This document shows positions 2,726 through 51,078 of a DNA stretch of 64,000 nucleotides, one piece after another. The translations under genes and the position numbers were made by a program. Positions within the stretch are counted from its first letter, which is position 1. The number at the start of each line of letters is the position of its first letter. Under the pieces are notes generated by a model. The model worked only from the letters and a program-made list of their open reading frames with translations, ran no database searches and was not told the origin of the DNA. Origin of the DNA: an uncultured Candidatus Saccharibacteria bacterium (GTDB taxonomy: Bacteria; Patescibacteriota; WWE3; UBA101185; UBA10185); contig CAZEBU010000002.1 in assembly GCA_964510435.1 (NCBI GenBank), forward strand, positions 81,080-145,079, in the 5' to 3' direction.

Positions 2726-3192
2726 GACACAGAGTCGCTAAAAAGACATTGCAAAGGGACAAGAGTCATAGAGTAGCATTACTAAAAAACCTTTCCACTA
2801 GCCTTATTATCAACGAGAAGGTTATAACAACAGTTTCCAAAGCAAAGTACTTAAGACCTCATATAGAAAAACTTATTACTAAGGCAAAAAAAGGAAATGG
2901 CTTTAACAACGTCAAGTATATGAAAAGCAAGCTTTTCAAAGAAGATGCTGTACGAAAAATCTTGAGTGATTTAGGCCCAAGATTTAGTAAAAGGCCTGGA
3001 GGCTACACCAGAATAATTAAGATCAAGAATAGAGAAGGTGATAATGCTCCCATGGCAAGAATTGAGTTTGTTGAGAAACCAAGAAAAAAGGAGAAAAAGG
3101 TTACTGAAAAGGTAGAAAAGAAATCTGGGAGAAAAATAACAGCTAAGAATGTTAAGAAAAATAAGGCGAAAAATAAGGAAGCTATAAAATGA
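2722..3192 (+). CDS. rplQ: 50S ribosomal protein L17 with Lys-rich C-terminal extension
   Basis: 156 aa; L17 core (RHRVAKKTLQRDKSHRVALLKNL...) plus a ~45-aa K/E-rich tail. Overlaps rpoA by 4 nt. Confidence 0.9.
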   Translation: MRHRVAKKTLQRDKSHRVALLKNLSTSLIINEKVITTVSKAKYLRPHIEKLITKAKKGNGFNNVKYMKSKLFKEDAVRKILSDLGPRFSKRPGGYTRIIKIKNREGDNAPMARIEFVEKPRKKEKKVTEKVEKKSGRKITAKNVKKNKAKNKEAIK

Positions 3193-3605
3193 AAAAGACC
3201 TATATCCCAAGCAAAAATGAGATCAAACAAAACTGGCATTTGATAGATGTAGATAACAAAATCCTCGGCAGAGTAGCTACGGAAATAGCCACATTACTTA
3301 CAGGAAAAAATAAACCAAGCTATACTCCTCATATCAACGTGGGAGATAAAGTGGTGGTGATCAATGCAGAGAAAATTGCAGTGACAGGAAGAAAATTAAC
3401 CCAAAAAAAATATCACAGATTTACAGGCTACCCCAGCGGAATTAAAACCGAGTCTCTGGAAAAACTACTGGAAAGGAAACCTACGGATGTAATTAAAAAA
3501 GCTGTGTGGGGCATGCTTCCAAACAATAAACTTAGAAAAGAGAGAATCATCAATTTACATATCTACAAAGGTGAGGAACATCCACACCAAGGGCAAATAA
3601 AATAA
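3189..3605 (+). CDS. rplM: 50S ribosomal protein L13
   Basis: 138 aa; MKKTYIPSKNEIKQNWHLIDVDNKILGRVATEIA... typical of L13. Overlaps rplQ by 4 nt. Confidence 0.9.
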   Translation: MKKTYIPSKNEIKQNWHLIDVDNKILGRVATEIATLLTGKNKPSYTPHINVGDKVVVINAEKIAVTGRKLTQKKYHRFTGYPSGIKTESLEKLLERKPTDVIKKAVWGMLPNNKLRKERIINLHIYKGEEHPHQGQIK

Positions 3606-3606
3606 T

Positions 3607-4023
3607 ATGGCAAAAGTAGACTCACAAGACAATTTGGTTATGACCTCAGGAAAAAGGAAAACAGCCATCGCCAGAGTATTCCTTTACCGAGAAAAAGGTG
3701 ATATTTTTGTAAATGACAAAAAGATTGATGATTACTTTACCAAAGAAATTGAACATATTGCTTGGAAAAAACCCTTTCACATCATAGGTGTTTCACATCC
3801 TGATACTCAGTTTAGAGGTACCATTAAAGTTTTTGGTTCAGGGAAATCAGCCCAACTTGATGCAATAACACACGGAATCTCCAGAGCGTTAGCCAAAATG
3901 GACGACGAATATAGGACAGCGCTAGGAAAAGCCGGTTTATTGACCAGAGATCCCCGAATGGTGGAACGAAAAAAGTATTATTTAAGAAAAGCTAGGAAAC
4001 GTCCACAGTATTCAAAGAGATAA
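3607..4023 (+). CDS. rpsI: 30S ribosomal protein S9
   Basis: 138 aa; the C-terminus ...RKARKRPQYSKR is diagnostic of S9. Confidence 0.9.
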   Translation: MAKVDSQDNLVMTSGKRKTAIARVFLYREKGDIFVNDKKIDDYFTKEIEHIAWKKPFHIIGVSHPDTQFRGTIKVFGSGKSAQLDAITHGISRALAKMDDEYRTALGKAGLLTRDPRMVERKKYYLRKARKRPQYSKR

Positions 4024-4299
4024 CCTATCCTTTAACAACTCTTTTAAATGTAGTAATTCACTTTCTATATTATTAATCTTTGATCTCAACTCGTACTTAT
4101 GGACATCATTCATATTAACAATAGGTGTATTGTAGATCGAGGAAATCTTATCCAAAACTTTTAAAGGAGGGCTTGTTCTCCCCCTCTCATAAGCAGAAAT
4201 AGTTTTCCCGGAAAGTCCTATTCTCTTAGCAAAACGATCCTGGGAAAGATTGTAACCATCTCTTATTTTCTTTATTTTTTTTCCAATATGTTCGGGCAT
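4012..4299 (-). CDS. XRE-family helix-turn-helix transcriptional regulator
   Basis: 95 aa; N-terminal HTH_3 pattern (IKKIRDGYNLSQDRFAKRIGLSGKTISAYERGRTSP). Divergent from the RadC-like gene. Confidence 0.7.
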   Translation of the reverse strand: MPEHIGKKIKKIRDGYNLSQDRFAKRIGLSGKTISAYERGRTSPPLKVLDKISSIYNTPIVNMNDVHKYELRSKINNIESELLHLKELLKDRLSL

Positions 4300-4367: not shown

Positions 4368-5084
4368 ATGTACGGAAAACTGACCTTAAGGGATTTCGAT
4401 AAGGGAAATCAGCCTCGCGAAAGACTCGTAAATAAAGGCTCGGAAGCTCTTTCAGATGTTGAGCTGATGGCCATAATATTAAGATCCGGAGGAAAACACA
4501 AATCAGTTTTGGATATTTCCTACGAACTGCTAAAAAAACACGGCAACCTGGTTAATATATTCCAATGTGATCTGGAACAGCTGGCAAAGGAGAAGTACAT
4601 CGGGCGAGTGAAAGCCATAACTATAATAGCTGTCTTAGAAATATCTAAAAGAATACATTTGGCAAATAAGAAAGAGTATAGGTACATTCACAAACCCAAA
4701 GATGCCTTCCAAATAGTAAAGAAAGAACTTTTTGGTAAACGGCAAGAACATCTTTACTTAATTTCTCTTGATACTAGAAAGAGGTTTCTTTCTAAGGATC
4801 TGATCTGTATCGGATCTGTTAATGAAACGTTGATTCCTGTTAGGGAAATAATACAAAAAGCATTACTAAAGGACGCCGTCAATATTATCCTTGTGCATAA
4901 CCACCCCTCTAAGGATCCCAGTCCCAGTAAGGAGGATCTAGTAATTACCGAAAAAATTGCAAAAGCATGCCAACTAACCGGTTTGTCGCTTTTGGATCAC
5001 ATTATTACGGCTGACAATGAGTTTGCTAGTATAAAAAGTCTAGATTTATTTAATAGTGAAAAGTTAAGCAATGAAAGGAGGTGA
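4368..5084 (+). CDS. radC: RadC-like JAB-domain protein (UPF0758)
   Basis: 238 aa; N-terminal HhH-like region and a C-terminal JAB/MPN domain with HNHPSxxxxPSxxD (HNHPSKDPSPSKED). Confidence 0.85.
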   Translation: MYGKLTLRDFDKGNQPRERLVNKGSEALSDVELMAIILRSGGKHKSVLDISYELLKKHGNLVNIFQCDLEQLAKEKYIGRVKAITIIAVLEISKRIHLANKKEYRYIHKPKDAFQIVKKELFGKRQEHLYLISLDTRKRFLSKDLICIGSVNETLIPVREIIQKALLKDAVNIILVHNHPSKDPSPSKEDLVITEKIAKACQLTGLSLLDHIITADNEFASIKSLDLFNSEKLSNERR

Positions 5085-5088
5085 AGAA

Positions 5089-5220
5089 ATGAAAACAAAG
5101 TTAATTGTGATTTCCAGTTTGGCAATCTTAATACTAATTCTGGCCGGTGTGTCGTGGGCTGCATTCGGAGATAGAAGTAAGATCTTAGGGAGCAGTTTTT
5201 CTGTGGGGAGTGTTACCTAA
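5089..5220 (+). CDS. small predicted signal-peptide/membrane peptide (43 aa)
   Basis: ATG 4 nt after the radC stop, preceded by a ggaggtgaag RBS. Encodes MKTKLIVISSLAILILILAGVSWAAFGDRSKILGSSFSVGSVT. Hand-counted; overlaps the 3' end of the convergent ORF 5185-5598. Confidence 0.35.
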   Translation: MKTKLIVISSLAILILILAGVSWAAFGDRSKILGSSFSVGSVT

Positions 5221-5598
5221 TTCAATAGTAGATACCTTTATCTCCCCATCAATCAAAATATGGTCTTTATAGACAACAAGTTTCTTTACCCTAGACCTCA
5301 GTAGTTCTCTTTTTAGTAGACCAGATGCATTTCCCTCCCTTATTAGTTCATTGTACTTATCAATAAACTCCTCTCTGGCTTTTGTTAACGCGCTTTTCCT
5401 AACTTTGAAAATTTTAAATTCTCCCAATTCACCTTTTCTTTCTCCTAGCTGTGTGGATAGAGACTCACGTTCTTTACTAATTTCTTTCAGTTTAGTATCA
5501 AGGAGGTCTTCTCTAAATCTCTTTTTTACAAATTCCTCAACAGGGTAAGTACAATCAAATAGGAATAAGTGTGTCGAGATGAAGATTATAGGGTACAC
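5185..5598 (-). CDS. hypothetical coiled-coil protein
   Basis: 137-aa ORF, charged and helical (KLKEISKERESLSTQLGERKGELGEF...). I recognise no family. Confidence 0.4.
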   Translation of the reverse strand: MYPIIFISTHLFLFDCTYPVEEFVKKRFREDLLDTKLKEISKERESLSTQLGERKGELGEFKIFKVRKSALTKAREEFIDKYNELIREGNASGLLKRELLRSRVKKLVVYKDHILIDGEIKVSTIELGNTPHRKTAP

Positions 5599-5724
5599 GA
5601 AACTAGAAAATATCTCAAAAAAACAGCTTTAAACGTCGTTTAATAAATGATATACGACATGCTCACAAATAGTTCTTTTATAGATAAGCTGATTTTAGTG
5701 CTAGTGAGGTTATAATCGTGTTTT

Positions 5725-6441
5725 TTATGATACTGGCTTAATAACATCAGCATATGGTGCAACAAATTGAGTACCTTCATCGGAGACAATTGGTGTTTCT
5801 TCTTTAATCGTTTTCCTGTTTTCTTCAGCAAGTTCCTGCTTAGAAATATCATAGTAAATCTCTCCTCCACTTTTAAGGTAATCACTTTTAACTTTTTTAT
5901 CACTTATATCGATAATGATTTTAACCTTTGATAGAAGATCAAGAGATAAAATGTCTGCCTTTTTACACTTCTTTTGTAGATTACCAATGTGCACGCTGTA
6001 GACATCCAGTAGGCTTTCGTTTACTTCTTTATCTTTAAGCGAGGTCATTATTGCATTTACTTCTTCTTCAAGATATTGGGTATCAGAGTTTATAGTCTCT
6101 ATTAAAGAATACAAATTTGAGTAATCATTAATGATATCAATACTCAGAATTTTAAGGCTTAAACCTGAGCTTAAAAATAATTTATAAAACCTGAGCATAA
6201 GTCTAATTACATTATCTTCATGATCGAAGGAAGCTTCTAAAGTTCTTAGGTTTCTGGACATATTTACTCGTAGTGGTATTAGCTCGTGTTCAATTTGGAC
6301 AATTGTGTTCCTATGATCAATATACTTATCTCTACGTAATTCTCTTAAGCGTCTTTTAGATTCAAAGTGATCTGACCATATACCAGCAAATAAACCACCT
6401 GAAAAAGCTGATAATAATATTAATATGGCATCTTCCTTCAT
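5725..6441 (-). CDS. hypothetical membrane-anchored protein
   Basis: 238 aa; one N-terminal TM helix (AILILLSAFSGGLFAGIW) then a helical soluble domain. I recognise no family. Confidence 0.5.
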   Translation of the reverse strand: MKEDAILILLSAFSGGLFAGIWSDHFESKRRLRELRRDKYIDHRNTIVQIEHELIPLRVNMSRNLRTLEASFDHEDNVIRLMLRFYKLFLSSGLSLKILSIDIINDYSNLYSLIETINSDTQYLEEEVNAIMTSLKDKEVNESLLDVYSVHIGNLQKKCKKADILSLDLLSKVKIIIDISDKKVKSDYLKSGGEIYYDISKQELAEENRKTIKEETPIVSDEGTQFVAPYADVIKPVS

Positions 6442-6527
6442 ATATGTATATTATATGTCAGTTTAGTTGTAATATATCCTTACAGGCACCACGCTAGTTC
6501 ATTAATGCAACAATAGTGATTGTGGTA

Positions 6528-6556
6528 TTTACAAAATTATAAATGGTTGCTAAAAT
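6528..6556 (+). promoter_or_regulatory. sigma70-like promoter (-35 TTTACA, 17-nt spacer, extended -10 TGcTAAAAT)
   Basis: tttaca at 6528-6533 and tgctaaaat at 6548-6556. The predicted transcription start is near 6563, at the base of a structured region. Confidence 0.45.
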
Positions 6557-6562
6557 GTAAGC

Positions 6563-6655
6563 GTGCTAGTCGGGCGAAAGCCCTTCTTCAGCTAAGACAT
6601 GTCTAAGCCGAGAGACTAGCACACTAAGAGCGCCTTTTCTGGCGCTTCTTTTTAT
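6563..6655 (+). ncRNA. candidate small RNA with a three-way-junction fold, ending in an intrinsic terminator
   Basis: A 9-bp outer stem gtgctagtc/gactagcac (6563-6571 / 6614-6622) encloses hairpins gggcGAAAgccc and gctaagacatgtctaagc. A GC stem agagcgcc..ggcgct (6627-6647) plus a cUUUUUaUU tract follows. Sits directly downstream of the promoter above and is antisense to the last ~11 codons of ORF 6624-7061. Confidence 0.4.
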
Positions 6656-7061
6656 TAGATTTCATTTTATTCTTATTCATAACACTTCCAAGTTTGTAAA
6701 TATTGTTATAGATTCCTATTTTTTCAACGACTACTTTTATCTTCATTCTTGGGGATACTGGATGAATAAGCTCATAACTTATAAGGTCTTTCATCTTACC
6801 CTTATATTTTTTCTTTCTCCTTCTTATTTCTGAAATACTCTCACAATTTTCAATGACCTCTGGTGCGTATTGTAAACACCTAAGTCTCATATATTGATCG
6901 CTAATATTTCTAGGCATTCTATTTGAGTCGTAAATGAGATGATTAAATCCTTCTGATGTGAAATGAACGTCAGATTTTAGAACAGGACAATAAACCTTTT
7001 TAATTTTTTTGTAGTCTTTACGCTTTTCTTCAATTAATTTCTGTATATCTTTCGTGATCAA
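6624..7061 (-). CDS. hypothetical highly basic protein
   Basis: 145 aa; a cysteine-containing N-terminal half and an extremely K/R-rich C-terminus (KNKMKSNKKKRQKRRS). No family recognised. Confidence 0.45.
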   Translation of the reverse strand: MITKDIQKLIEEKRKDYKKIKKVYCPVLKSDVHFTSEGFNHLIYDSNRMPRNISDQYMRLRCLQYAPEVIENCESISEIRRRKKKYKGKMKDLISYELIHPVSPRMKIKVVVEKIGIYNNIYKLGSVMNKNKMKSNKKKRQKRRS

Positions 7062-7313
7062 TTATCTGTCTTTCTTATAGTACTTTTATAAAACAATAAG
7101 CTGGTCTACTACCAATCCCTTGCTTTTTTAACGGTAACTCTCTTTAGAAATTCCTGCAAAAGTCGCTATTTTGCGCCCATAAAGTAGCACTCCAAGGTCT
7201 TAGGTGTCAAGTGGTGATTTTCTAGGTACGCGCAACAATTAAACATAACATCCAGGAGTCCCGTTAAATTTATTGTAAGCAAGCTTTTATAACCATCGAT
7301 AGTGGTATATACC

Positions 7314-7814
7314 TCACTCCGAGTTTATATTTTGCCAAAATATCTTTGGGTGGGGATATCCACCATAAATGGCGGCACTCTTATAAGCCTTTTTTACATT
7401 CTTTAAACCCTGCGTAGTCAAAACTTTGGTTAAACGCCCCCTGTACAGTTCTCTCGAAAGCTTTGGTTTAAACACAGGCATGCAAATCCAGTCCAGTATT
7501 TCCTCAATCAATGTATGCTCTTCATCCCTAAGATTTCCTGCTTTAATAGAGTAGCCTTTATTAGTCTTTTCAGTTTTATCACTATATATAGTCTTGTTAG
7601 AGTTCATCCTGTGGTACGTTCTATGGGGAATCTTTGATTCATTCTGTGGTGCAAATCCAATCACAGAGTCCACTTCATTTATCGTTACAACAGTTCCCTT
7701 TCTTGAAGGGCTCTGCTCTATTAACTGGTACACGTTTTCTAGTCTTTTAAGTGCCTTGCCTACAGTTCTGTGGTCACATCCAAACTCTCTGGCTATTTCT
7801 CTCCAACCACACAC
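7314..7814 (-). CDS. N-terminal HTH-domain protein (possible mobile-element or phage remnant)
   Basis: 166 aa with a GTG start. Residues 5-25 (REIAREFGCDHRTVGKALKRL) form a classic HTH like those of transposase OrfA or terminase small subunits. An in-frame stop lies 2 codons upstream, so the N-terminus is intact. Confidence 0.45.
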   Translation of the reverse strand: MCGWREIAREFGCDHRTVGKALKRLENVYQLIEQSPSRKGTVVTINEVDSVIGFAPQNESKIPHRTYHRMNSNKTIYSDKTEKTNKGYSIKAGNLRDEEHTLIEEILDWICMPVFKPKLSRELYRGRLTKVLTTQGLKNVKKAYKSAAIYGGYPHPKIFWQNINSE

Positions 7815-8000
7815 GCACTACCCACGTTTTAGGGTGTATACCTTACCCGCACTTTTAACAGCACCAGCTGAAATTCTTGTTCTAAGAAGTAAAAGGGTAT
7901 AAATATGCTTAGCTAGATAGTCTTCCCCAAATACACTATTTAAATTCGAGGGAATTGGGATTTTATAACTTGATTTAATTATGTCAATATTATTCATCTA

Positions 8001-8189
8001 TCAACTCTTCTCGGTCAAAATAATGTACCCCTTTCCCAAACATGCGTGGCACACTCTTCTATCAAAGGAAACAGTCCCAAACCCATTACAGACCAGGCAT
8101 TTATGCGGTTTTAAATCATTTCTATTTTTCATCGTTTTATCCATCTTTTTTATTTCGCTTTCAACAAAAAGGCTGACATATACACCCAA
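8001..8189 (-). CDS. small zinc-ribbon protein (CxxC...CxxC)
   Basis: 62 aa; KCLVCNGFGTVSFDRRVCHACLGKG carries two CxxC pairs. Could be a real small protein or spurious. Confidence 0.3.
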   Translation of the reverse strand: MGVYVSLFVESEIKKMDKTMKNRNDLKPHKCLVCNGFGTVSFDRRVCHACLGKGYIILTEKS

Positions 8190-8494
8190 TTCCTTGGATA
8201 GATATACCGGCTTTTCAGCAGGAACTCTGCTGTCACCTTTTTTACTGCAGCATTATAGACATGTTTTTTAAGTTTATGCAAATGCCGTATTTTGCTTTAA
8301 CCACAGTAAATCATAAAATATATTATTTTAAAATATTTCAAGATTAATAATTTTTTAATTTTTGGGAAGTACGATGTTGGAATGAAAAATACAAGGAAAC
8401 TCCTTAAGTTAATTGATTTACTAGCTCACCTAAACAAGAAAACAGGTAAAAGATACTATGTTTTAGTAACAATAGATGGTTCCTGGTAAAGAAA

Positions 8495-9064
8495 CTACAC
8501 GCCAATTCCTAGTATGTAAACGGGAATATCTATATCTGAAACTCCTCTGGCATTTAAATCCCATACAAACTGTTCAAAATACGACACGCCAGTAGACATC
8601 TTTGCCGCCAACTCTTTCACAGGAACTATCTCAACTCCGGCATCAATATGCCCTAAGTTACTAAAAATGGTCATTTTAGCGCATACATTGTAAACCATAA
8701 AAGAATACTTACCGAATTGCACCTCAACACCTAGCTTATTTTTTATAAAGTCCATTTCCCTGTATGCATTATTAATTTTTATTGGAGAATACCCGTCTAT
8801 AAAGTATTCTGTCGGGTAATCGCATTTCTCTCTTATTCCATATTGCCACCCTTTAGATTTAAAGATTCTTTTAAACTCGTTATTCAATTTTCGTGGAGAG
8901 TACAGTGTCTTACCTGGCATAGTTTTTTCTTTGCTCTCCTTGCTAAAACTCTTTAAAGCATCGTTTAAACCGATTGCTTCTTCAATCTCTTTTAACTCTT
9001 GACTATAATTATTTTTTACATAATCCTCGCCATTAGCGAAGGAATACCTTCCAAATATTTTCAT
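8495..9064 (-). CDS. type II restriction endonuclease, BamHI/BglII/BstYI family
   Basis: 189 aa. IDGY...GVEVQFGKYSF...LGHIDAGVEIVPVKELAAK follows the BamHI pattern (D94 ... GMEFETGNIS ... LKHGEIDLAIILMPIKQLAYY). A Gln occupies the position of BamHI Glu113, as in BglII. Sits 2 nt downstream of a methyltransferase gene. Confidence 0.6.
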   Translation of the reverse strand: MKIFGRYSFANGEDYVKNNYSQELKEIEEAIGLNDALKSFSKESKEKTMPGKTLYSPRKLNNEFKRIFKSKGWQYGIREKCDYPTEYFIDGYSPIKINNAYREMDFIKNKLGVEVQFGKYSFMVYNVCAKMTIFSNLGHIDAGVEIVPVKELAAKMSTGVSYFEQFVWDLNARGVSDIDIPVYILGIGV

Positions 9065-9066
9065 CT

Positions 9067-10005
9067 TTATTTAATCCAACTTATTGGTACCTTCGATACC
9101 TTTTCTTTTCCTGTTGGTTTGTATACTGGTTTACCTAGAGGCCTTATTCTTAATTTTCCAGCTCTTAATTTAGCAATTCTCTTCTCGGCTAAGCTAACAT
9201 ATTTTGCTTCCATTTCCATACCTAATGCATCCCTATTATGCATAATAGCACCAATAACCGTGGAACCCACACCCATAAACGGGTCGTAAACCAAATCTCC
9301 TTCGTTTGTTAATGCTAGAACACATCTCTGAACCAATTCCACGGGAAATTGACAGGGATGACCAGTCTTTTCAGGATGATTGCTTTTTACATTAGGTATT
9401 TCCCAAATTTCCTTCTCCCAATCCCCACAAATTATCTCCCAAAAATCTGAAGGATTCTTTCCTCTTGGATTACCAGAAGGTTTACCTAAATTTTTACCTT
9501 TATAGGAAAGCTTTCCTGGGTACTTTGCAGGAACTCTTACATTATCAAGGTTGAACACATACTCTTTATTCTTATCATTTTTTGTGAACCATAATATTGT
9601 CTCGTACCTACCCGAAAACCTTTTACTAGCGTGGAGTCCGTGACCAAAATGCCAGATTATTCTATTCCTTAGATGAAATCCAACGTCTTTAAAAATATTA
9701 TAAAAATAAATATCTAAGGGAAAAACTTCGCCTTTTTTGATATAGTTTCCAACCTCCCATGCTAAACTGCCGCCGTCTCTTATTTTGGAGTAAATTGCTC
9801 GAGCAAAATCTTTATAAGGATGAAGGTACTTTTCAAAATCTTTTCTTTTCTCATATTCCTTTCCAATATTGTATGGTGGAGAGGTTATAAGTAATTGTAT
9901 GCTATCATCTTCCAATTTTTTTACATGTTTGAATGTATCAACTTGGAGAATATCGTATTTACCAAATTTTTTTTGCATGTTTAATCCCAACTTTGACTGT
10001 GCCAT
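9067..10005 (-). CDS. DNA methyltransferase, beta-class (SPPY motif IV before FxGxG motif I), probable N4-cytosine or N6-adenine type II MTase
   Basis: 312 aa; LLITSPPYNIGKEY (motif IV) followed later by DPFMGVGST (motif I). This order matches the N4C/N6A beta group that includes M.BamHI and M.PvuII. Confidence 0.85.
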   Translation of the reverse strand: MAQSKLGLNMQKKFGKYDILQVDTFKHVKKLEDDSIQLLITSPPYNIGKEYEKRKDFEKYLHPYKDFARAIYSKIRDGGSLAWEVGNYIKKGEVFPLDIYFYNIFKDVGFHLRNRIIWHFGHGLHASKRFSGRYETILWFTKNDKNKEYVFNLDNVRVPAKYPGKLSYKGKNLGKPSGNPRGKNPSDFWEIICGDWEKEIWEIPNVKSNHPEKTGHPCQFPVELVQRCVLALTNEGDLVYDPFMGVGSTVIGAIMHNRDALGMEMEAKYVSLAEKRIAKLRAGKLRIRPLGKPVYKPTGKEKVSKVPISWIK

Positions 10006-10151
10006 AAACCTATGTTATCACACACACAAAACTATCAATTATATACCGGGTCATTACTAAACAATGAGGTTGTGAATTTGTGATTTATATTTTCAAAAAA
10101 TAAGGAATACCAATACATTCATTATAGTTACTTTCTTGGTAGGAAGTTTCC

Positions 10152-11432
10152 CTAAAACGCATCCAATTCAGCAAAGGACGGATTATTGACAATTTCCTCT
10201 ACAGCATCGCTATCAAATTTTTCGTTCTGCCAAAAACCCCGAAGTTCCAAATCTTTTGTTGCAAGGGGGTATATCCATGCAGTAAACACTTTATCTGCTT
10301 TATCAATAAATATTATCCTTACCTCCACACCTCCAGCAAGAGAACCACTAAGTGGAAACGTGACAAATTTGCTTCTATAATAACTATTGTCAAAATTCTT
10401 CAAACCAGTAATTTCGGTTTCTAAACCAACTATAGCTAGATGTGACACGCCGTCATTACCCCCGTCAAGATAATTATCTAAGGCTTCTCTCAAGAAAGTC
10501 ACATACTCCAAGTCACTAATATTCTTTCTCCATTCTAAGTATTCTTCGTAATCGCCTATAGCTGGTTGTGGAAAGGTATCACCAGCATTATAAATATCTT
10601 CAATCTCTATTTTTGGTTGCTGTGCAGTTAACCCATTAGCTTCGCTAGGCTCAGTGTGCTCTTTAGCCCCGTTAGAATCATAAAACTTAAGGTCAGTCGG
10701 AAGATTGAATTTATTAGGCTCATAGGTAGTAATTTCTAGCAATATTGATATGCCTGTGACTAAAGTGACAAGTACTAAAGATACTTCTAAAAATCTTAGA
10801 ATTTTTCTTCTTCCCCAGAAATTATTAAAAAACTTGAATGCTAATATAAACAAAGTAAACGATGCCAGTAATAACGGTAATATTTCTTCAGGAATACTTG
10901 GTTTGGGTGAGTACCCTATAAAAGCACCTATAATTGCGTATAAAATCAGTAAAAAGAGAAGTAAAACTAACCAAAATAATACCTTGACTATTTCGTCGGT
11001 TTTCCTATAGGAGAAAGCCAGACGCGTATATATTTTCTGTATTAATTCCTTAGTATATCTAAAACCATACAACTTAATTAATAATATTGTTCCTATTAAA
11101 AATGTTATCATTCTCCAAATATTATCTGAGAACCAAGCGCTATCTGAGAATTTAAACTCTGCAATCGGATTTATAACCACAATTAACAATATATAAACTC
11201 TTACCCAAGTCATGTTTTTACTCTGATATTCTTTATATGCAAGGTAGATTAGTGATAAGAAAATAATTATCTTGAAGTTATAGAATGTATTACTATTTGA
11301 AAGGTAACTAGGCTGTGTGGCCAACAACCAAATAAATAAAAATAACAAAACTAGTGGTAAACTTTTCAGTATAACCGAGTCAGACTTTATCATTGATAGT
11401 ATTTTCTTATTGTAAGACTCTTTTAGTTCCAT
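10152..11432 (-). CDS. hypothetical polytopic membrane protein with C-terminal soluble domain
   Basis: 426 aa; about 7 hydrophobic helices in the first ~240 aa, then an acidic soluble domain. No family recognised. Confidence 0.55.
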   Translation of the reverse strand: MELKESYNKKILSMIKSDSVILKSLPLVLLFLFIWLLATQPSYLSNSNTFYNFKIIIFLSLIYLAYKEYQSKNMTWVRVYILLIVVINPIAEFKFSDSAWFSDNIWRMITFLIGTILLIKLYGFRYTKELIQKIYTRLAFSYRKTDEIVKVLFWLVLLLFLLILYAIIGAFIGYSPKPSIPEEILPLLLASFTLFILAFKFFNNFWGRRKILRFLEVSLVLVTLVTGISILLEITTYEPNKFNLPTDLKFYDSNGAKEHTEPSEANGLTAQQPKIEIEDIYNAGDTFPQPAIGDYEEYLEWRKNISDLEYVTFLREALDNYLDGGNDGVSHLAIVGLETEITGLKNFDNSYYRSKFVTFPLSGSLAGGVEVRIIFIDKADKVFTAWIYPLATKDLELRGFWQNEKFDSDAVEEIVNNPSFAELDAF

Positions 11433-51019: not shown

Positions 51020-51053
51020 AAATCTTGCTACCAACAATAGCTAGATTAGTTAA

Positions 51054-51078
51054 AACGCCTCAGGAGGCGTTTTTTTAT
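51054..51078 (+). terminator. rho-independent terminator of greA
   Basis: aacgcct-cagg-aggcgtt is a 7-bp stem, followed by ttttttt. Confidence 0.65.

What the first reader, a model, noticed from the sequence alone, without database searches (positions are those of the whole stretch)
6528..6655. Promoter-to-terminator small RNA candidate, cis-antisense to the 3' end of orphan ORF 6624-7061
A near-consensus promoter (-35 TTTACA, 17-nt spacer, extended -10 TGcTAAAAT) is followed, starting at about 6563, by a compact three-way-junction RNA. The fold has a 9-bp outer stem plus a GNRA hairpin gggcGAAAgccc and a palindromic hairpin, and ends in a GC-stem/U-tract intrinsic terminator at about 6627-6655. 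No plus-strand protein gene lies upstream. The terminator part overlaps the last ~11 codons of the basic-protein ORF on the opposite strand. Possible roles are antisense control of that gene or a type I toxin-antitoxin-like arrangement.
Basis: seen in the sequence. Interest (0 to 1): 0.55.

Follow-up and report, generated by a model that had tools for sequence, protein, structure and literature searches.

The report
New small RNA paired with LPD3-like protein
The flagged spot is a real, independently transcribed ~90-nt structured RNA gene from a family absent from Rfam; it sits tail-to-tail with a small uncharacterised protein gene in nearly all of 80 loci examined (mostly ultra-small Patescibacteria), so the two look like a mobile RNA-protein module, possibly a new kind of toxin-antitoxin pair.

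Summary
Window 6528-6556 is an extended -10 promoter. Bases 6563-6622 fold into a three-way junction (P1 9 bp, P2 GGGC-GAAA-GCCC, P3 bulged hairpin). Bases 6628-6653 are an intrinsic terminator (fold z -5.4). Rfam 15 has no match.

The "orphan" ORF 6624-7061(-) is not orphan. It belongs to a family of at least 1,253 50%-identity clusters of small basic proteins, distantly related to the LPD3 domain of phage polyvalent proteins.

I examined 80 loci that encode a homologue (the window, four contigs and 75 species genomes; 57 of the 75 are labelled Patescibacteria). A covariance model finds the same RNA in 79. It is always on the opposite strand, tail-to-tail with the ORF. Its terminator overlaps the ORF stop or lies within 17 nt in 72 of 74 measured cases. 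A sigma70 promoter sits just upstream in 67 of 79 cases, against 1% at control positions. Compensatory changes occur at 23 of 26 base pairs. The RNA core is 80-87% identical where the proteins are about 47% identical. No third gene is conserved.

So this is a new sRNA family in an autonomous two-gene RNA-protein module. My best guess is that the RNA binds and controls the protein in an antitoxin-like way, with 3' antisense overlap as a second layer. That mechanism is untested.

The parts
6528..6533 (+). -35 hexamer TTTACA of the sRNA promoter
   Evidence: Promoter scan. A TTGnnn box sits at the equivalent position in 67 of 79 homologous loci, against 1% at control positions.
6548..6556 (+). 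Extended -10 element TGcTAAAAT, 17-nt spacer from the -35
   Evidence: A conserved TAnnnT ends 4-9 nt before the first base of P1 across the loci.
6563..6653 (+). Whole predicted sRNA (~91 nt): three-way junction, A-rich linker and terminator. Only copy in the window.
   Evidence: Covariance models R1 (106 bits) and R2 (75 bits); fold z -5.4. No Rfam family matches.
6563..6571 (+). P1 5' strand (GUGCUAGUC); the predicted transcription start is G6563
   Evidence: Pairs with 6614-6622. Seven of 8 modelled P1 pairs show compensatory changes. 66 of 79 family members start with GUG.
6572..6583 (+). P2 hairpin GGGC-GAAA-GCCC, a GNRA loop; it is GUCA in subtypes B and C
   Evidence: 99.7% of cells paired and 3 of 4 pairs with compensatory changes.
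6585..6613 (+). P3 arm. Comparative pairs are 6587-6593 with 6606-6612 (A6590.C6609 mismatch in this copy). Then the A6594.A6605 mismatch, the inner stem 6595-6597/6602-6604, and the loop CAUG.
   Evidence: Six of 7 modelled P3 pairs show compensatory changes. The inner stem and the A.A mismatch are conserved within subtype A.
6614..6622 (+). P1 3' strand (GACUAGCAC)
6623..6627 (+). A-rich linker. Its complement carries the stop codon TAG (6624-6626) of the partner ORF and provides the U-rich tract for termination of the mRNA on the other strand.
   Evidence: In the family the linker is CAAA(A/G) or UAAAG. In the 8 nt after the hairpin, T counts average 4.9 in the mRNA direction and 5.7 in the sRNA direction.
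6628..6653 (+). Intrinsic terminator shared by both genes: stem GAGCGCC/GGCGCUU, loop UUUUCU, then a U-tract
   Evidence: Terminator scan. All 7 modelled pairs covary. The ORF stop lies between -38 and +17 nt from the RNA 3' end in 72 of 74 loci.
6624..7061 (-). Partner gene: a 145-aa basic LPD3-like protein with TTG start and the conserved motif HFTSEGFNHLIY. Its last 9 codons (KKRQKRRS*) are the complement of the sRNA terminator.
   Evidence: Family size: 587 homologues and 1,253 representative clusters. Pfam LPD3: 24.9 bits for this protein, and 50 of 77 relatives hit. AF2 pLDDT 91. BFVD LPD3 domain prob 0.96.
7074..7079 (-). Tentative -10 element (TATAAG) of the partner gene, 12 nt upstream of its TTG start (short or no leader)
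   Evidence: Read from the sequence. It was not picked up by the promoter scan. Analogous -10 boxes lie 6-13 nt before the start codon in L004, L005, L011, L014 and L020. Weak evidence.

Best explanation
Bases 6563-6653(+) are the gene for a ~90-nt sRNA of a previously uncatalogued family. The RNA is transcribed from its own sigma70 promoter, starting at the first G of P1. It folds into a compact three-way junction (P1, a GNNA-capped P2 and a variable P3) and ends at an intrinsic terminator.

Together with the convergent gene 6624-7061(-), which encodes a small basic stand-alone LPD3-like protein, it forms a self-contained two-gene module. The module moves between genomic contexts. The two genes share one bidirectional terminator, so the transcripts overlap by about 25-35 nt at their 3' ends.

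Proposed mechanism (inferred, not shown): the junction core is a specific ligand of the LPD3-like protein and keeps it in check, in an antitoxin-like way as in type III toxin-antitoxin systems. The 3' antisense overlap and the shared terminator add coupling at the RNA level, as in type I systems. The protein may be a BECR/RelE-like RNA-targeting effector.
For: SHOWN
1. Linkage. Covariance models find the RNA in 79 of 80 loci that encode a homologue of the protein. It is always on the opposite strand directly downstream. The ORF stop to RNA 3' end distance is -38 to +17 nt in 72 of 74 cases. A second, divergent module in L065 obeys the same rule.
2. Independent transcription. A TTGnnn-N16-18-TAnnnT box ends 4-9 nt before P1 in 67 of 79 loci, against 1% at control positions. 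The terminator has T-rich tracts on both sides.
3. Structure. 95.3% of cells are paired and 23 of 26 pairs show compensatory changes. None of 500 shuffles reaches the observed values, and slid controls give 33-48% paired. RNAalifold predicts the same fold on its own. All 67 distinct cores fold alone into a hairpin-rich form, and nearly all into the same three-way junction. Abundant G.U pairs fix the strand.
4. Autonomy. The protein is the only gene conserved around the RNA (78 loci); the next real neighbour family occurs in 5 or fewer loci. Flanking genes differ between loci. In the window the module sits in an island with a BglII-type restriction-modification system and a weak PADLOC candidate.

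POINTING TO PROTEIN BINDING
5. The junction core is 80-87% identical at nucleotide level where the proteins are about 47% identical and the terminator hairpins are 46-65% identical.
6. The core has no excess complementarity to the partner mRNA 5' region: median z -0.18, and 2 of 78 below -2.
7. RNA subtypes A, B and C track the protein size classes of about 140, 159 and 180 aa.
8. Genomes with two modules carry different subtypes (L065; L078 and L079).
9. A phage-like contig carries the junction alone, with no protein gene and no terminator (L120).

POINTING TO AN RNA-DIRECTED EFFECTOR
10. The protein is basic.
11. The AF2 model is confident (pLDDT 91).
13. In polyvalent proteins, LPD3 co-occurs with PBECR RNase and RelA/SpoT domains (PMC5512222).
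Against: - There is no experimental evidence for the transcript, for binding or for toxicity.
- The 2017 LPD survey did not list LPD3 among its seven potentially enzymatic LPD domains.
- The protein has no hit in PADLOC, PHROGs or NCBIfam.
- The module lacks the defining type III features: a tandem-repeat RNA, a same-strand operon and a ToxN fold.
- Co-variation of RNA and protein subtypes is also expected from simple co-inheritance.
- The strict convergent layout is not needed for a pure protein-binding mechanism and could instead point to antisense control.
- The phage copy is a single case.
Confidence: 0.45

Rival explanations
1. Purely cis-antisense (type I-like) control. The sRNA acts only through its 3' overlap with the partner mRNA. 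The complementary terminator hairpins pair, and RNase III cleaves upstream of or at the stop codon, or convergent transcription interferes. This lowers protein output. The three-way junction only stabilises the sRNA or helps initiate pairing.
For: - The convergent, overlapping layout is conserved in every locus.
- In about 45% of loci the overlap covers the last 5-12 codons plus the stop, and in subtype C it is a constant 32 nt.
- From my own knowledge: 3'-overlapping type I pairs (txpA/RatA, bsrG/SR4) and type I pairs with non-membrane toxins (SymE/SymR, RalR/RalA) exist.
Against: - Sequence-level conservation of the non-overlapping core (80-87%) far exceeds that of the overlapping terminator (46-65%). 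A stabilising stem would need structure only.
- In subtype B the ORF ends 1-17 nt before the RNA 3' end, so only untranslated sequence overlaps.
- The phage copy L120 lacks both the terminator and the target gene.
- The protein is not a small hydrophobic peptide.
Confidence: 0.25
2. A constitutive ribonucleoprotein rather than an antagonistic pair. The LPD3-like protein needs the junction RNA as cofactor, scaffold or specificity subunit for a shared activity, for example in defence or in interaction with the host cell. Neither partner is toxic.
For: - 1:1 linkage, strong sequence conservation of the RNA core, and co-varying subtypes.
- The 2017 LPD survey did not list LPD3 among its potentially enzymatic LPD domains, which leaves room for a binding role.
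- No homology to known toxins at significant levels.
Against: - The RNA has no variable guide-like segment. The only variable parts are the P3 loop and helix sequences that covary.
- Two loci keep an intact RNA next to a truncated protein ORF (L066 and L078), which is more typical of antitoxin retention.
- The mobile, patchy, sometimes multi-copy distribution resembles selfish or defence modules.
Confidence: 0.2
3. The RNA is a substrate, or a catalytic RNA. Either it is a small ribozyme with a three-way junction, or it is an RNA that the protein processes or modifies.
For: - Compact junction with conserved junction nucleotides, and a topology like a type III hammerhead.
- Conserved E/D37, H41, R51 and R80 in the protein could form a metal-independent RNase site (inference).
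Against: - Rfam ribozyme models do not match even at E <= 10.
- The junction strands (UUCUUCA and CGAGA) do not match the hammerhead core CUGANGA / GAAA (read from the sequence).
- No cleavage-site signature is conserved.
Confidence: 0.05
4. There is no functional link, or no RNA at all. The element is only a bidirectional terminator with chance upstream structure, or it is an unrelated trans-acting sRNA that happens to share a terminator.
For: - The hairpin does have T-rich tracts on both sides.
- Promoter-like sites are common in this AT-rich DNA.
Against: - Promoter, covarying junction and terminator are conserved together next to the same gene in 79 of 80 loci, down to 27% protein identity and in unrelated genomic contexts.
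- G.U pairs fix the structure to the sRNA strand.
Confidence: 0.03

Closest known systems
Type III toxin-antitoxin systems (ToxIN, CptIN, TenpIN)
   Same: A structured RNA gene is obligately linked to one protein gene in a compact, mobile two-gene module. The proposed logic is the same: the RNA binds and neutralises a probably RNA-directed protein. A phage-borne protein-less copy (L120) recalls phage pseudo-ToxI mimics (my own knowledge).
   Different: The RNA is a single ~60-nt three-way junction with its own promoter and terminator, not an array of 34-36-nt repeats processed by the toxin. The genes are convergent, not in one operon. The protein has no ToxN/AbiQ signature.
Type I toxin-antitoxin pairs with convergent 3'-overlapping antitoxin RNAs (txpA/RatA, bsrG/SR4) or enzyme toxins (SymE/SymR, RalR/RalA)
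   Same: Convergent sRNA and mRNA with overlapping 3' ends that include the terminator. The RNA is a stand-alone promoter-to-terminator transcript.
   Different: The protein is 130-190 aa, basic and soluble alpha/beta, not a membrane peptide of under 60 aa. The most conserved part of the RNA lies outside the overlap. In a third of the loci the overlap does not reach the coding sequence.
LPD3 domain (Pfam PF18798) of phage and conjugative-element polyvalent proteins (Iyer et al. 2017, PMC5512222)
   Same: Weak but recurrent profile matches: 50 of 77 family members, best E 4.8e-07. The predicted fold resembles an LPD3 domain in a podovirus polyvalent protein: prob 0.96, TM 0.49.
   Different: Here the domain stands alone, is chromosomal in Patescibacteria, and always comes with an sRNA gene. 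The window protein scores below Pfam's gathering threshold (24.9 against 27 bits). The paper gives no RNA partner or function for LPD3.
RelE/BECR-fold RNase toxins (RelE, BrnT, MqsR, CdiA-CT)
   Different: The scores are in the twilight zone. There is no sequence similarity and no protein antitoxin gene, and the conserved motif FTSEGFNH lies in an extra N-terminal subdomain.
Gene-associated orphan RNA motifs in Rfam (for example the abiF and DUF3800 motifs; from memory)
   Same: A conserved structured RNA is found next to one family of conflict-type genes, with suspected antitoxin-like roles.
   Different: Those motifs lie upstream on the same strand as the gene. This RNA matches none of the 4,227 Rfam 15 families.

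Membership tests
Bacterial stand-alone sRNA gene (promoter to intrinsic terminator) | Own sigma70-type promoter placed to start transcription at the RNA 5' end | tested here: met
   Window: TTTACA-17-TGcTAAAAT, ending 6 nt before G6563. The pattern is present in 67 of 79 loci against 1% at control positions.
Bacterial stand-alone sRNA gene (promoter to intrinsic terminator) | Rho-independent terminator at the 3' end | tested here: met
   All 7 terminator pairs covary. The mean T count is 5.7 in the 8 nt after the hairpin.
Bacterial stand-alone sRNA gene (promoter to intrinsic terminator) | Conserved secondary structure supported by covariation | tested here: met
   23 of 26 pairs have compensatory changes and 95.3% of cells are paired. 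None of 500 shuffles reaches this, and slid controls give at most 48%. RNAalifold agrees.
Bacterial stand-alone sRNA gene (promoter to intrinsic terminator) | Detected transcript | not testable with these tools
   No expression data are available.
Any Rfam 15 family | Score at or above a family's gathering threshold | tested here: not met
   No hit in the window or in 14 loci covering all subtypes. The best sub-threshold hits (22.6 bits, against gathering scores of 114 for BSnc120 in the window and 45 for antisense_SR1 in L045) are carried mainly by the terminator.
Type I toxin-antitoxin | The antitoxin is an RNA complementary to the toxin mRNA | tested here: met
   Cis-encoded 3' overlap through the shared terminator. 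It reaches 16-38 nt into the ORF in about 45% of loci and 28 nt in the window. Actual pairing was not tested.
Type I toxin-antitoxin | The toxin is a small (usually under 60 aa) hydrophobic membrane peptide | tested here: not met
   The proteins are 130-190 aa and basic, with a confident globular alpha/beta model.
Type I or type III toxin-antitoxin | The protein is toxic and the RNA counteracts it | not testable with these tools
   Needs expression experiments.
Type III toxin-antitoxin | The antitoxin RNA is a tandem array of short repeats processed by the toxin | tested here: not met
   No tandem repeats in 6300-7300. The junction is a single copy with its own promoter and terminator.
Type III toxin-antitoxin | The RNA gene lies upstream of the toxin gene on the same strand, separated by a terminator | tested here: not met
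   The genes are convergent in all 79 cases.
Type III toxin-antitoxin | The toxin belongs to the ToxN/AbiQ, CptN or TenpN families | tested here: not met
   Pfam gives only weak LPD3 matches. PADLOC gives none for the window protein and only a 15.7-bit match to a candidate family (PDC-M04B) for one homologue, P0101.
Type III toxin-antitoxin | The RNA binds the protein directly | not testable with these tools
   Inferred only, from core conservation and the lack of an antisense target.
LPD3 (Pfam PF18798) | Profile score above the gathering threshold | tested here: inconclusive
   The window protein scores 24.9 bits against 27. 50 of 77 relatives match at E <= 0.01. Several homologues carry precomputed PF18798 hits.
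LPD3 (Pfam PF18798) | Same fold as LPD3 domains in polyvalent proteins | tested here: inconclusive
   BFVD hit to an LPD3 fragment: prob 0.96, TMq 0.49, E 0.11.
RelE/BECR-fold RNases | Significant structural similarity to solved members | tested here: inconclusive
Hammerhead ribozyme | Conserved core CUGANGA ... GAAA around a three-way junction | tested here: not met
   The junction strands are UUCUUCA and CGAGA. No Rfam hammerhead hit even at E <= 10.

The most novel reading that the evidence does not exclude
The three-way-junction RNA and the stand-alone LPD3-like protein form a previously unrecognised class of RNA-protein conflict module. It would be an RNA-antitoxin or RNA-cofactor system, widespread in Patescibacteria, that matches neither type I nor type III toxin-antitoxin systems: a single non-repetitive structured RNA, a convergent gene and a shared terminator. 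By extension, the LPD3 domain found in phage polyvalent proteins would be an RNA-binding or RNA-targeting domain whose natural ligand resembles this junction. Phages might carry the RNA alone as a countermeasure.
Probability: 0.35. Interest if true: 0.85.

Novelty: new variant of a known kind. Interest (0 to 1): 0.7.

Why it matters
Patescibacteria (CPR) make up a large share of bacterial diversity, yet very little is known about their regulatory RNAs or their conflict systems.

Four things would follow if the reading is right:
- A new structured RNA family (about 60-nt core, strong covariation, not in Rfam) whose function can be addressed directly, because its partner gene is known.
- The first functional handle on LPD3, a domain of unknown function in the giant polyvalent proteins that phages and conjugative elements inject.
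- If the pair is a toxin-antitoxin or defence module, it would widen the range of RNA antitoxins beyond repeat arrays and simple antisense RNAs.
- It would be a compact, orthogonal RNA-protein recognition pair with at least three co-varying subtypes.

One carrier is a cultured bacterium (Thiocapsa sp. KS1), so experiments are feasible.

Tried and rejected
- Rfam: no family matched at gathering thresholds or at E <= 10, in the window or in loci of all three subtypes. The sub-threshold hits are terminator look-alikes.
- Hammerhead or other small ribozyme: the topology is similar, but the core nucleotides do not match (sequence).
- Direct DNA pattern TAGTCGGGCGAAAGCCC-N28-40-GACTA: nothing in genome contigs. 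The one metagenome hit is a chance match in a high-GC coding region (L002).
- Viral contigs: no relative of the protein. RNA-derived patterns gave 35 loci. Of these, 34 are coding-sequence or terminator-like chance matches. Only L120 is a true junction.
- tblastn of a family member against PLSDB plasmids and INPHARED phages: no match.
- PADLOC, PHROGs and NCBIfam for the protein: nothing for the window protein; one homologue (P0101) gives a 15.7-bit PADLOC match to PDC-M04B. PDB sequence profile: nothing meaningful.
- Foldseek against PDB: nothing at E < 0.001. The afdb50 library was unavailable.
- Trans-antisense idea: RNAduplex of the sRNA core against the partner mRNA 5' region gives median z -0.18, with 2 of 78 below -2 (an earlier run timed out). 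Rejected.
- Third conserved gene: all-against-all clustering of ORFs around 78 modules found only shadow ORFs inside the protein gene. Rejected.
- Tandem repeats (type III style): none.
- Other copies in the window: none. The weak R1 hit at 51021-51076 (20.5 bits, E 0.073) was not recovered by the broader model R2.
- Naming the source organism by exact look-up of three window proteins: no names on record.
Full report
**1. What is in the window**

- Promoter: TTTACA at 6528-6533, a 17-nt spacer, and TGcTAAAAT at 6548-6556. It scores 10 of 12 consensus positions with the TG extension.
- Three-way junction: from G6563 the RNA folds as follows.
  - P1 is GUGCUAGUC (6563-6571) paired with GACUAGCAC (6614-6622).
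  - P2 is GGGC-GAAA-GCCC (6572-6583).
  - P3 (6585-6613) is a bulged hairpin with an A.A mismatch and the loop CAUG.
- Terminator: after the linker ACUAA comes a GC-rich hairpin (6628-6647) and a U-tract.
- Fold energy: -42.2 kcal/mol against -26.2 +/- 3.0 for shuffles, z -5.4.
- Overlap: ORF 6624-7061(-) ends with its stop codon (6624-6626) in the linker. Its last nine codons are therefore the complement of the terminator.

Promoter-like hexamers alone are not significant in this 35% GC region: 10 found against 9.4 expected. Rfam 15 gives nothing at gathering thresholds in the whole window. Around the site it gives only terminator-driven sub-threshold hits. The window has no tRNA and no second copy of the element.

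**2. The ORF is not an orphan**

A first search found six homologues. A profile search found 587 clusters at 90% identity, all labelled hypothetical. An exhaustive HMMER search found 1,253 clusters at 50% identity with E <= 1e-3, and 764 with E <= 1e-10. All are stand-alone proteins of about 125-220 aa.

The family has the invariant residues Y17, F34, G38, H41, R51 and S126, and the motif (H/Y)F(T/N)S(E/D)GFNH(L)(I/L)Y.

Links to known families are weak.
- Pfam gives only weak LPD3 (PF18798) matches: 24.9 bits for the window protein against a threshold of 27, and 50 of 77 relatives at E <= 0.01.
- AlphaFold2 with a 77-sequence alignment gives a confident model: pLDDT 91, pTM 0.82. The order of elements is a helix, a beta-hairpin, a helix, a short strand, a long helix and four long antiparallel strands.
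- Foldseek against the PDB finds nothing significant.
- Among viral models the best meaningful hit is an LPD3 domain of a podovirus polyvalent protein: prob 0.96, TM 0.49, E 0.11.
- The paper that defined LPD3 gives it no function. It notes that LPD3 occurs together with PBECR RNase and RelA/SpoT domains in Helicobacter prophage polyvalent proteins (PMC5512222).
- PADLOC, PHROGs, NCBIfam and the PDB sequence profile gave nothing useful.

**3. The RNA travels with the protein**

Contigs carrying the first homologues (L004, L005, L006, L010) all show the same arrangement just past the stop codon, on the opposite strand: a promoter, a three-way junction and a terminator. Helices differ by compensatory changes, and the genomic surroundings are unrelated.

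A scan of one genome per GTDB species with the protein alignment returned 75 loci. Their record titles break down as follows:
- 57 name a Patescibacteria/CPR lineage (Saccharibacteria, Paceibacterota, Nomura-, Roizman-, Woesebacteria and others).
- 9 name other phyla, including the cultured Thiocapsa sp. KS1.
- 9 carry other or unspecific labels: 8 are just "bacterium" and one is Candidatus Elulimicrobiales.

A covariance model built from four sequences (R1) hit 75 times at E < 0.01. Apart from the window's own copy and a second module in L065, every hit is on the minus strand directly downstream of the protein match. A second model built from those hits (R2) finds the RNA in 79 of the 80 protein-encoding loci. 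One of these is cut by a contig end (L067). The one miss (L084) is a partial protein match near a contig end.

Other regularities:
- The distance from ORF stop to RNA 3' end is -38 to +17 nt in 72 of 74 cases. The two outliers (L066, L078) have truncated ORFs next to intact RNAs.
- L065 carries two modules 2 kb apart. The second has a divergent protein (motif SFNNTGFTH) and a divergent RNA, again tail-to-tail with a 16-nt overlap.
- L078 and L079 come from one MAG and carry different RNA subtypes.
- Clustering all ORFs around the modules shows the protein in 78 loci. No other real family occurs in more than 5.

**4. Evidence that it is an independent, structured transcript**

- Promoter: upstream of the RNA 5' end, 67 of 79 loci match TTGnnn-N16-18-TAnnnT ending 4-9 nt before P1, against 1% of control positions. 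66 of 79 RNAs begin with GUG.
- Covariation on the R2 alignment: 95.3% of cells form standard pairs, and 23 of 26 pairs show changes on both sides (269 cells). None of 500 column shuffles reaches the observed values. Sliding the partners by 1-3 columns drops pairing to 33-48%.
- RNAalifold predicts the same four helices, with compensatory changes at 21 of 24 pairs.
- Of the 67 distinct cores folded alone, nearly all give the same junction; two weak copies lose P1 in the MFE fold.
- G.U pairs are common (UG 40 at pair 9-81, GU 35 at 39-75, UG 23 at 6-84). These would be A.C mismatches on the other strand, so the fold belongs to the sRNA strand.
- The A-rich linker (CAAAA or UAAAG) and the U-tract flank the hairpin symmetrically. 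In the 8 nt after the hairpin, mean T counts are 5.7 in the sRNA direction and 4.9 in the mRNA direction. The terminator therefore serves both genes, and the two RNAs overlap at their 3' ends.

Three RNA subtypes are visible.

| Subtype | P2 loop | Other features | Partner protein size |
|---|---|---|---|
| A (this window) | GAAA | long P3 with an A.A mismatch | about 135-145 aa |
| B | GUCA | P3 UUCGGCU...AGCCGAA | 159 aa |
| C | GUCA | P2 GGUC-GUCA-GACC; P3 CUGGCC... | about 180 aa |

**5. What it most likely does**

Firm: this is a two-gene module, and the RNA is under strong selection.

The core is 80-87% identical at nucleotide level within subtypes. In the same comparisons the proteins are about 47% identical and the terminator hairpins are 46-65% identical. 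That is more than a helix-only constraint, so the core seems to be recognised in a sequence-specific way.

The core does not overlap the mRNA. It also shows no excess complementarity to the mRNA 5' region: median z -0.18, and 2 of 78 below -2.

The simplest partner is therefore the co-encoded basic protein. I propose that the RNA binds and restrains it, in an antitoxin-like way as in type III systems. The shared terminator and 3' overlap would add antisense or termination coupling as in type I systems. In the window and in subtype C, the stop codon and the last codons of the ORF lie inside the overlap. Pairing or RNase III cleavage there could yield non-stop mRNAs. This step is inference.

Observations that fit a toxin-antitoxin or defence module:
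- The patchy, context-independent distribution.
- Occasional double copies with different subtypes.
- Two truncated protein genes next to intact RNAs.
- The island context in the window: a BglII-type endonuclease and methylase at 8495-10005, an HTH protein at 7314-7814, and a neighbour with a weak PDC-M08B hit at 5725-6441.

A phage-like contig (L120, with a terminase hit) carries a subtype-A-like junction with a 12-bp P1. It has no terminator and no LPD3-like gene, and a Shine-Dalgarno sequence and a small ORF follow directly. This would suit an RNA that acts in trans on a protein, but it is one case.

The rivals, listed with their tests in the structured fields, are pure cis-antisense control, a non-antagonistic RNP, an RNA substrate or ribozyme, and no functional link.

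**6. Comparison with known systems and novelty**

The module works most like a type III toxin-antitoxin system, but it fails three of that family's defining features: a repeat array, a same-strand operon and a ToxN-type toxin. Its layout resembles convergent type I pairs, but it fails the small-hydrophobic-toxin criterion, and its conserved core lies outside the overlap. Membership of the protein in LPD3 is inconclusive but likely distant.

I found no description of the RNA or of the pairing. Rfam has none. Full-text searches for LPD3 and for CPR structured RNAs returned nothing relevant.

I rate it a new variant of a known kind (RNA-protein toxin-antitoxin-like module) built on a new RNA family. 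There is a real chance that it is a distinct class. Interest is 0.7: the comparative evidence is unusually clean and gives a testable handle on both a CPR sRNA and the LPD3 domain, but the function remains inferred.

Noticed in passing
L120 4339-4405 (+) (IMGVR_UViG_3300014204_003407): A phage-like contig (terminase hit at 2850-3479) carries a protein-less copy of the subtype-A three-way junction with a 12-bp P1 (R2 42 bits). It has no terminator and is followed directly by AAGGAGG and the ATG of a 59-aa ORF. It could be a phage-borne mimic or antidote, or a 5'UTR use of the same fold.
   Followed up: partly
window 5185-11432: The module sits in a variable island just downstream of the ribosomal-protein operon (which ends with rpsI, 3607-4023), an HTH gene (4012-4299) and radC (4368-5084). 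The island contains a BglII-type restriction endonuclease (8495-9064) with an N4/N6 methylase (9067-10005), an HTH or DnaD-like protein (7314-7814), and a 238-aa protein (5725-6441) with weak hits to the PADLOC candidate PDC-M08B (E 7.8e-06).
   Followed up: partly
window 6624-6650 (-) and homologues P0004, P0005: The C-terminal tail KKR(Q/P)xRRS* of the protein is simply the translation of the complement of the GC-rich terminator hairpin. The same tail recurs in relatives with similar terminators. In subtype C the overlap is a constant 32 nt and the stop codon lies in the linker, so termination of the mRNA at the shared hairpin would end it at or near its stop codon.
   Followed up: partly
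L003 2602-3039 (GCA_006243215.1), protein P0001: The only difference from the window protein is Y17D, at a residue that is invariant in the 77-sequence family alignment. It may be an inactivating change in a near-identical strain.
   Followed up: no
L065 1146-1708 and 2956-3491; L078 and L079 (same MAG JBAZSH01): Two modules occur in one genome, each time with different RNA and protein subtypes. This is what one would expect for non-cross-reacting paralogous pairs.
   Followed up: partly
L066 2980-3544 and L078 2950-3388: The protein ORFs are truncated (131 and 88 aa, ending 81-85 nt before the RNA) while the RNA genes score normally (83 and 75 bits). This may be decay of the protein gene with retention of the RNA.
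   Followed up: no
upstream of the protein genes: L004, L005, L011, L014, L020; window 7062-7079: -10-like boxes lie only 6-13 nt before the start codon with no Shine-Dalgarno sequence, which suggests leaderless or very short-leader mRNAs for the partner gene.
   Followed up: no
L059 3488-3576 (Thiocapsa sp. KS1, LN848259.1): A complete subtype-C module lies in the genome of a cultured purple sulfur bacterium (60% GC copy). This organism could be used for experiments.
   Followed up: no
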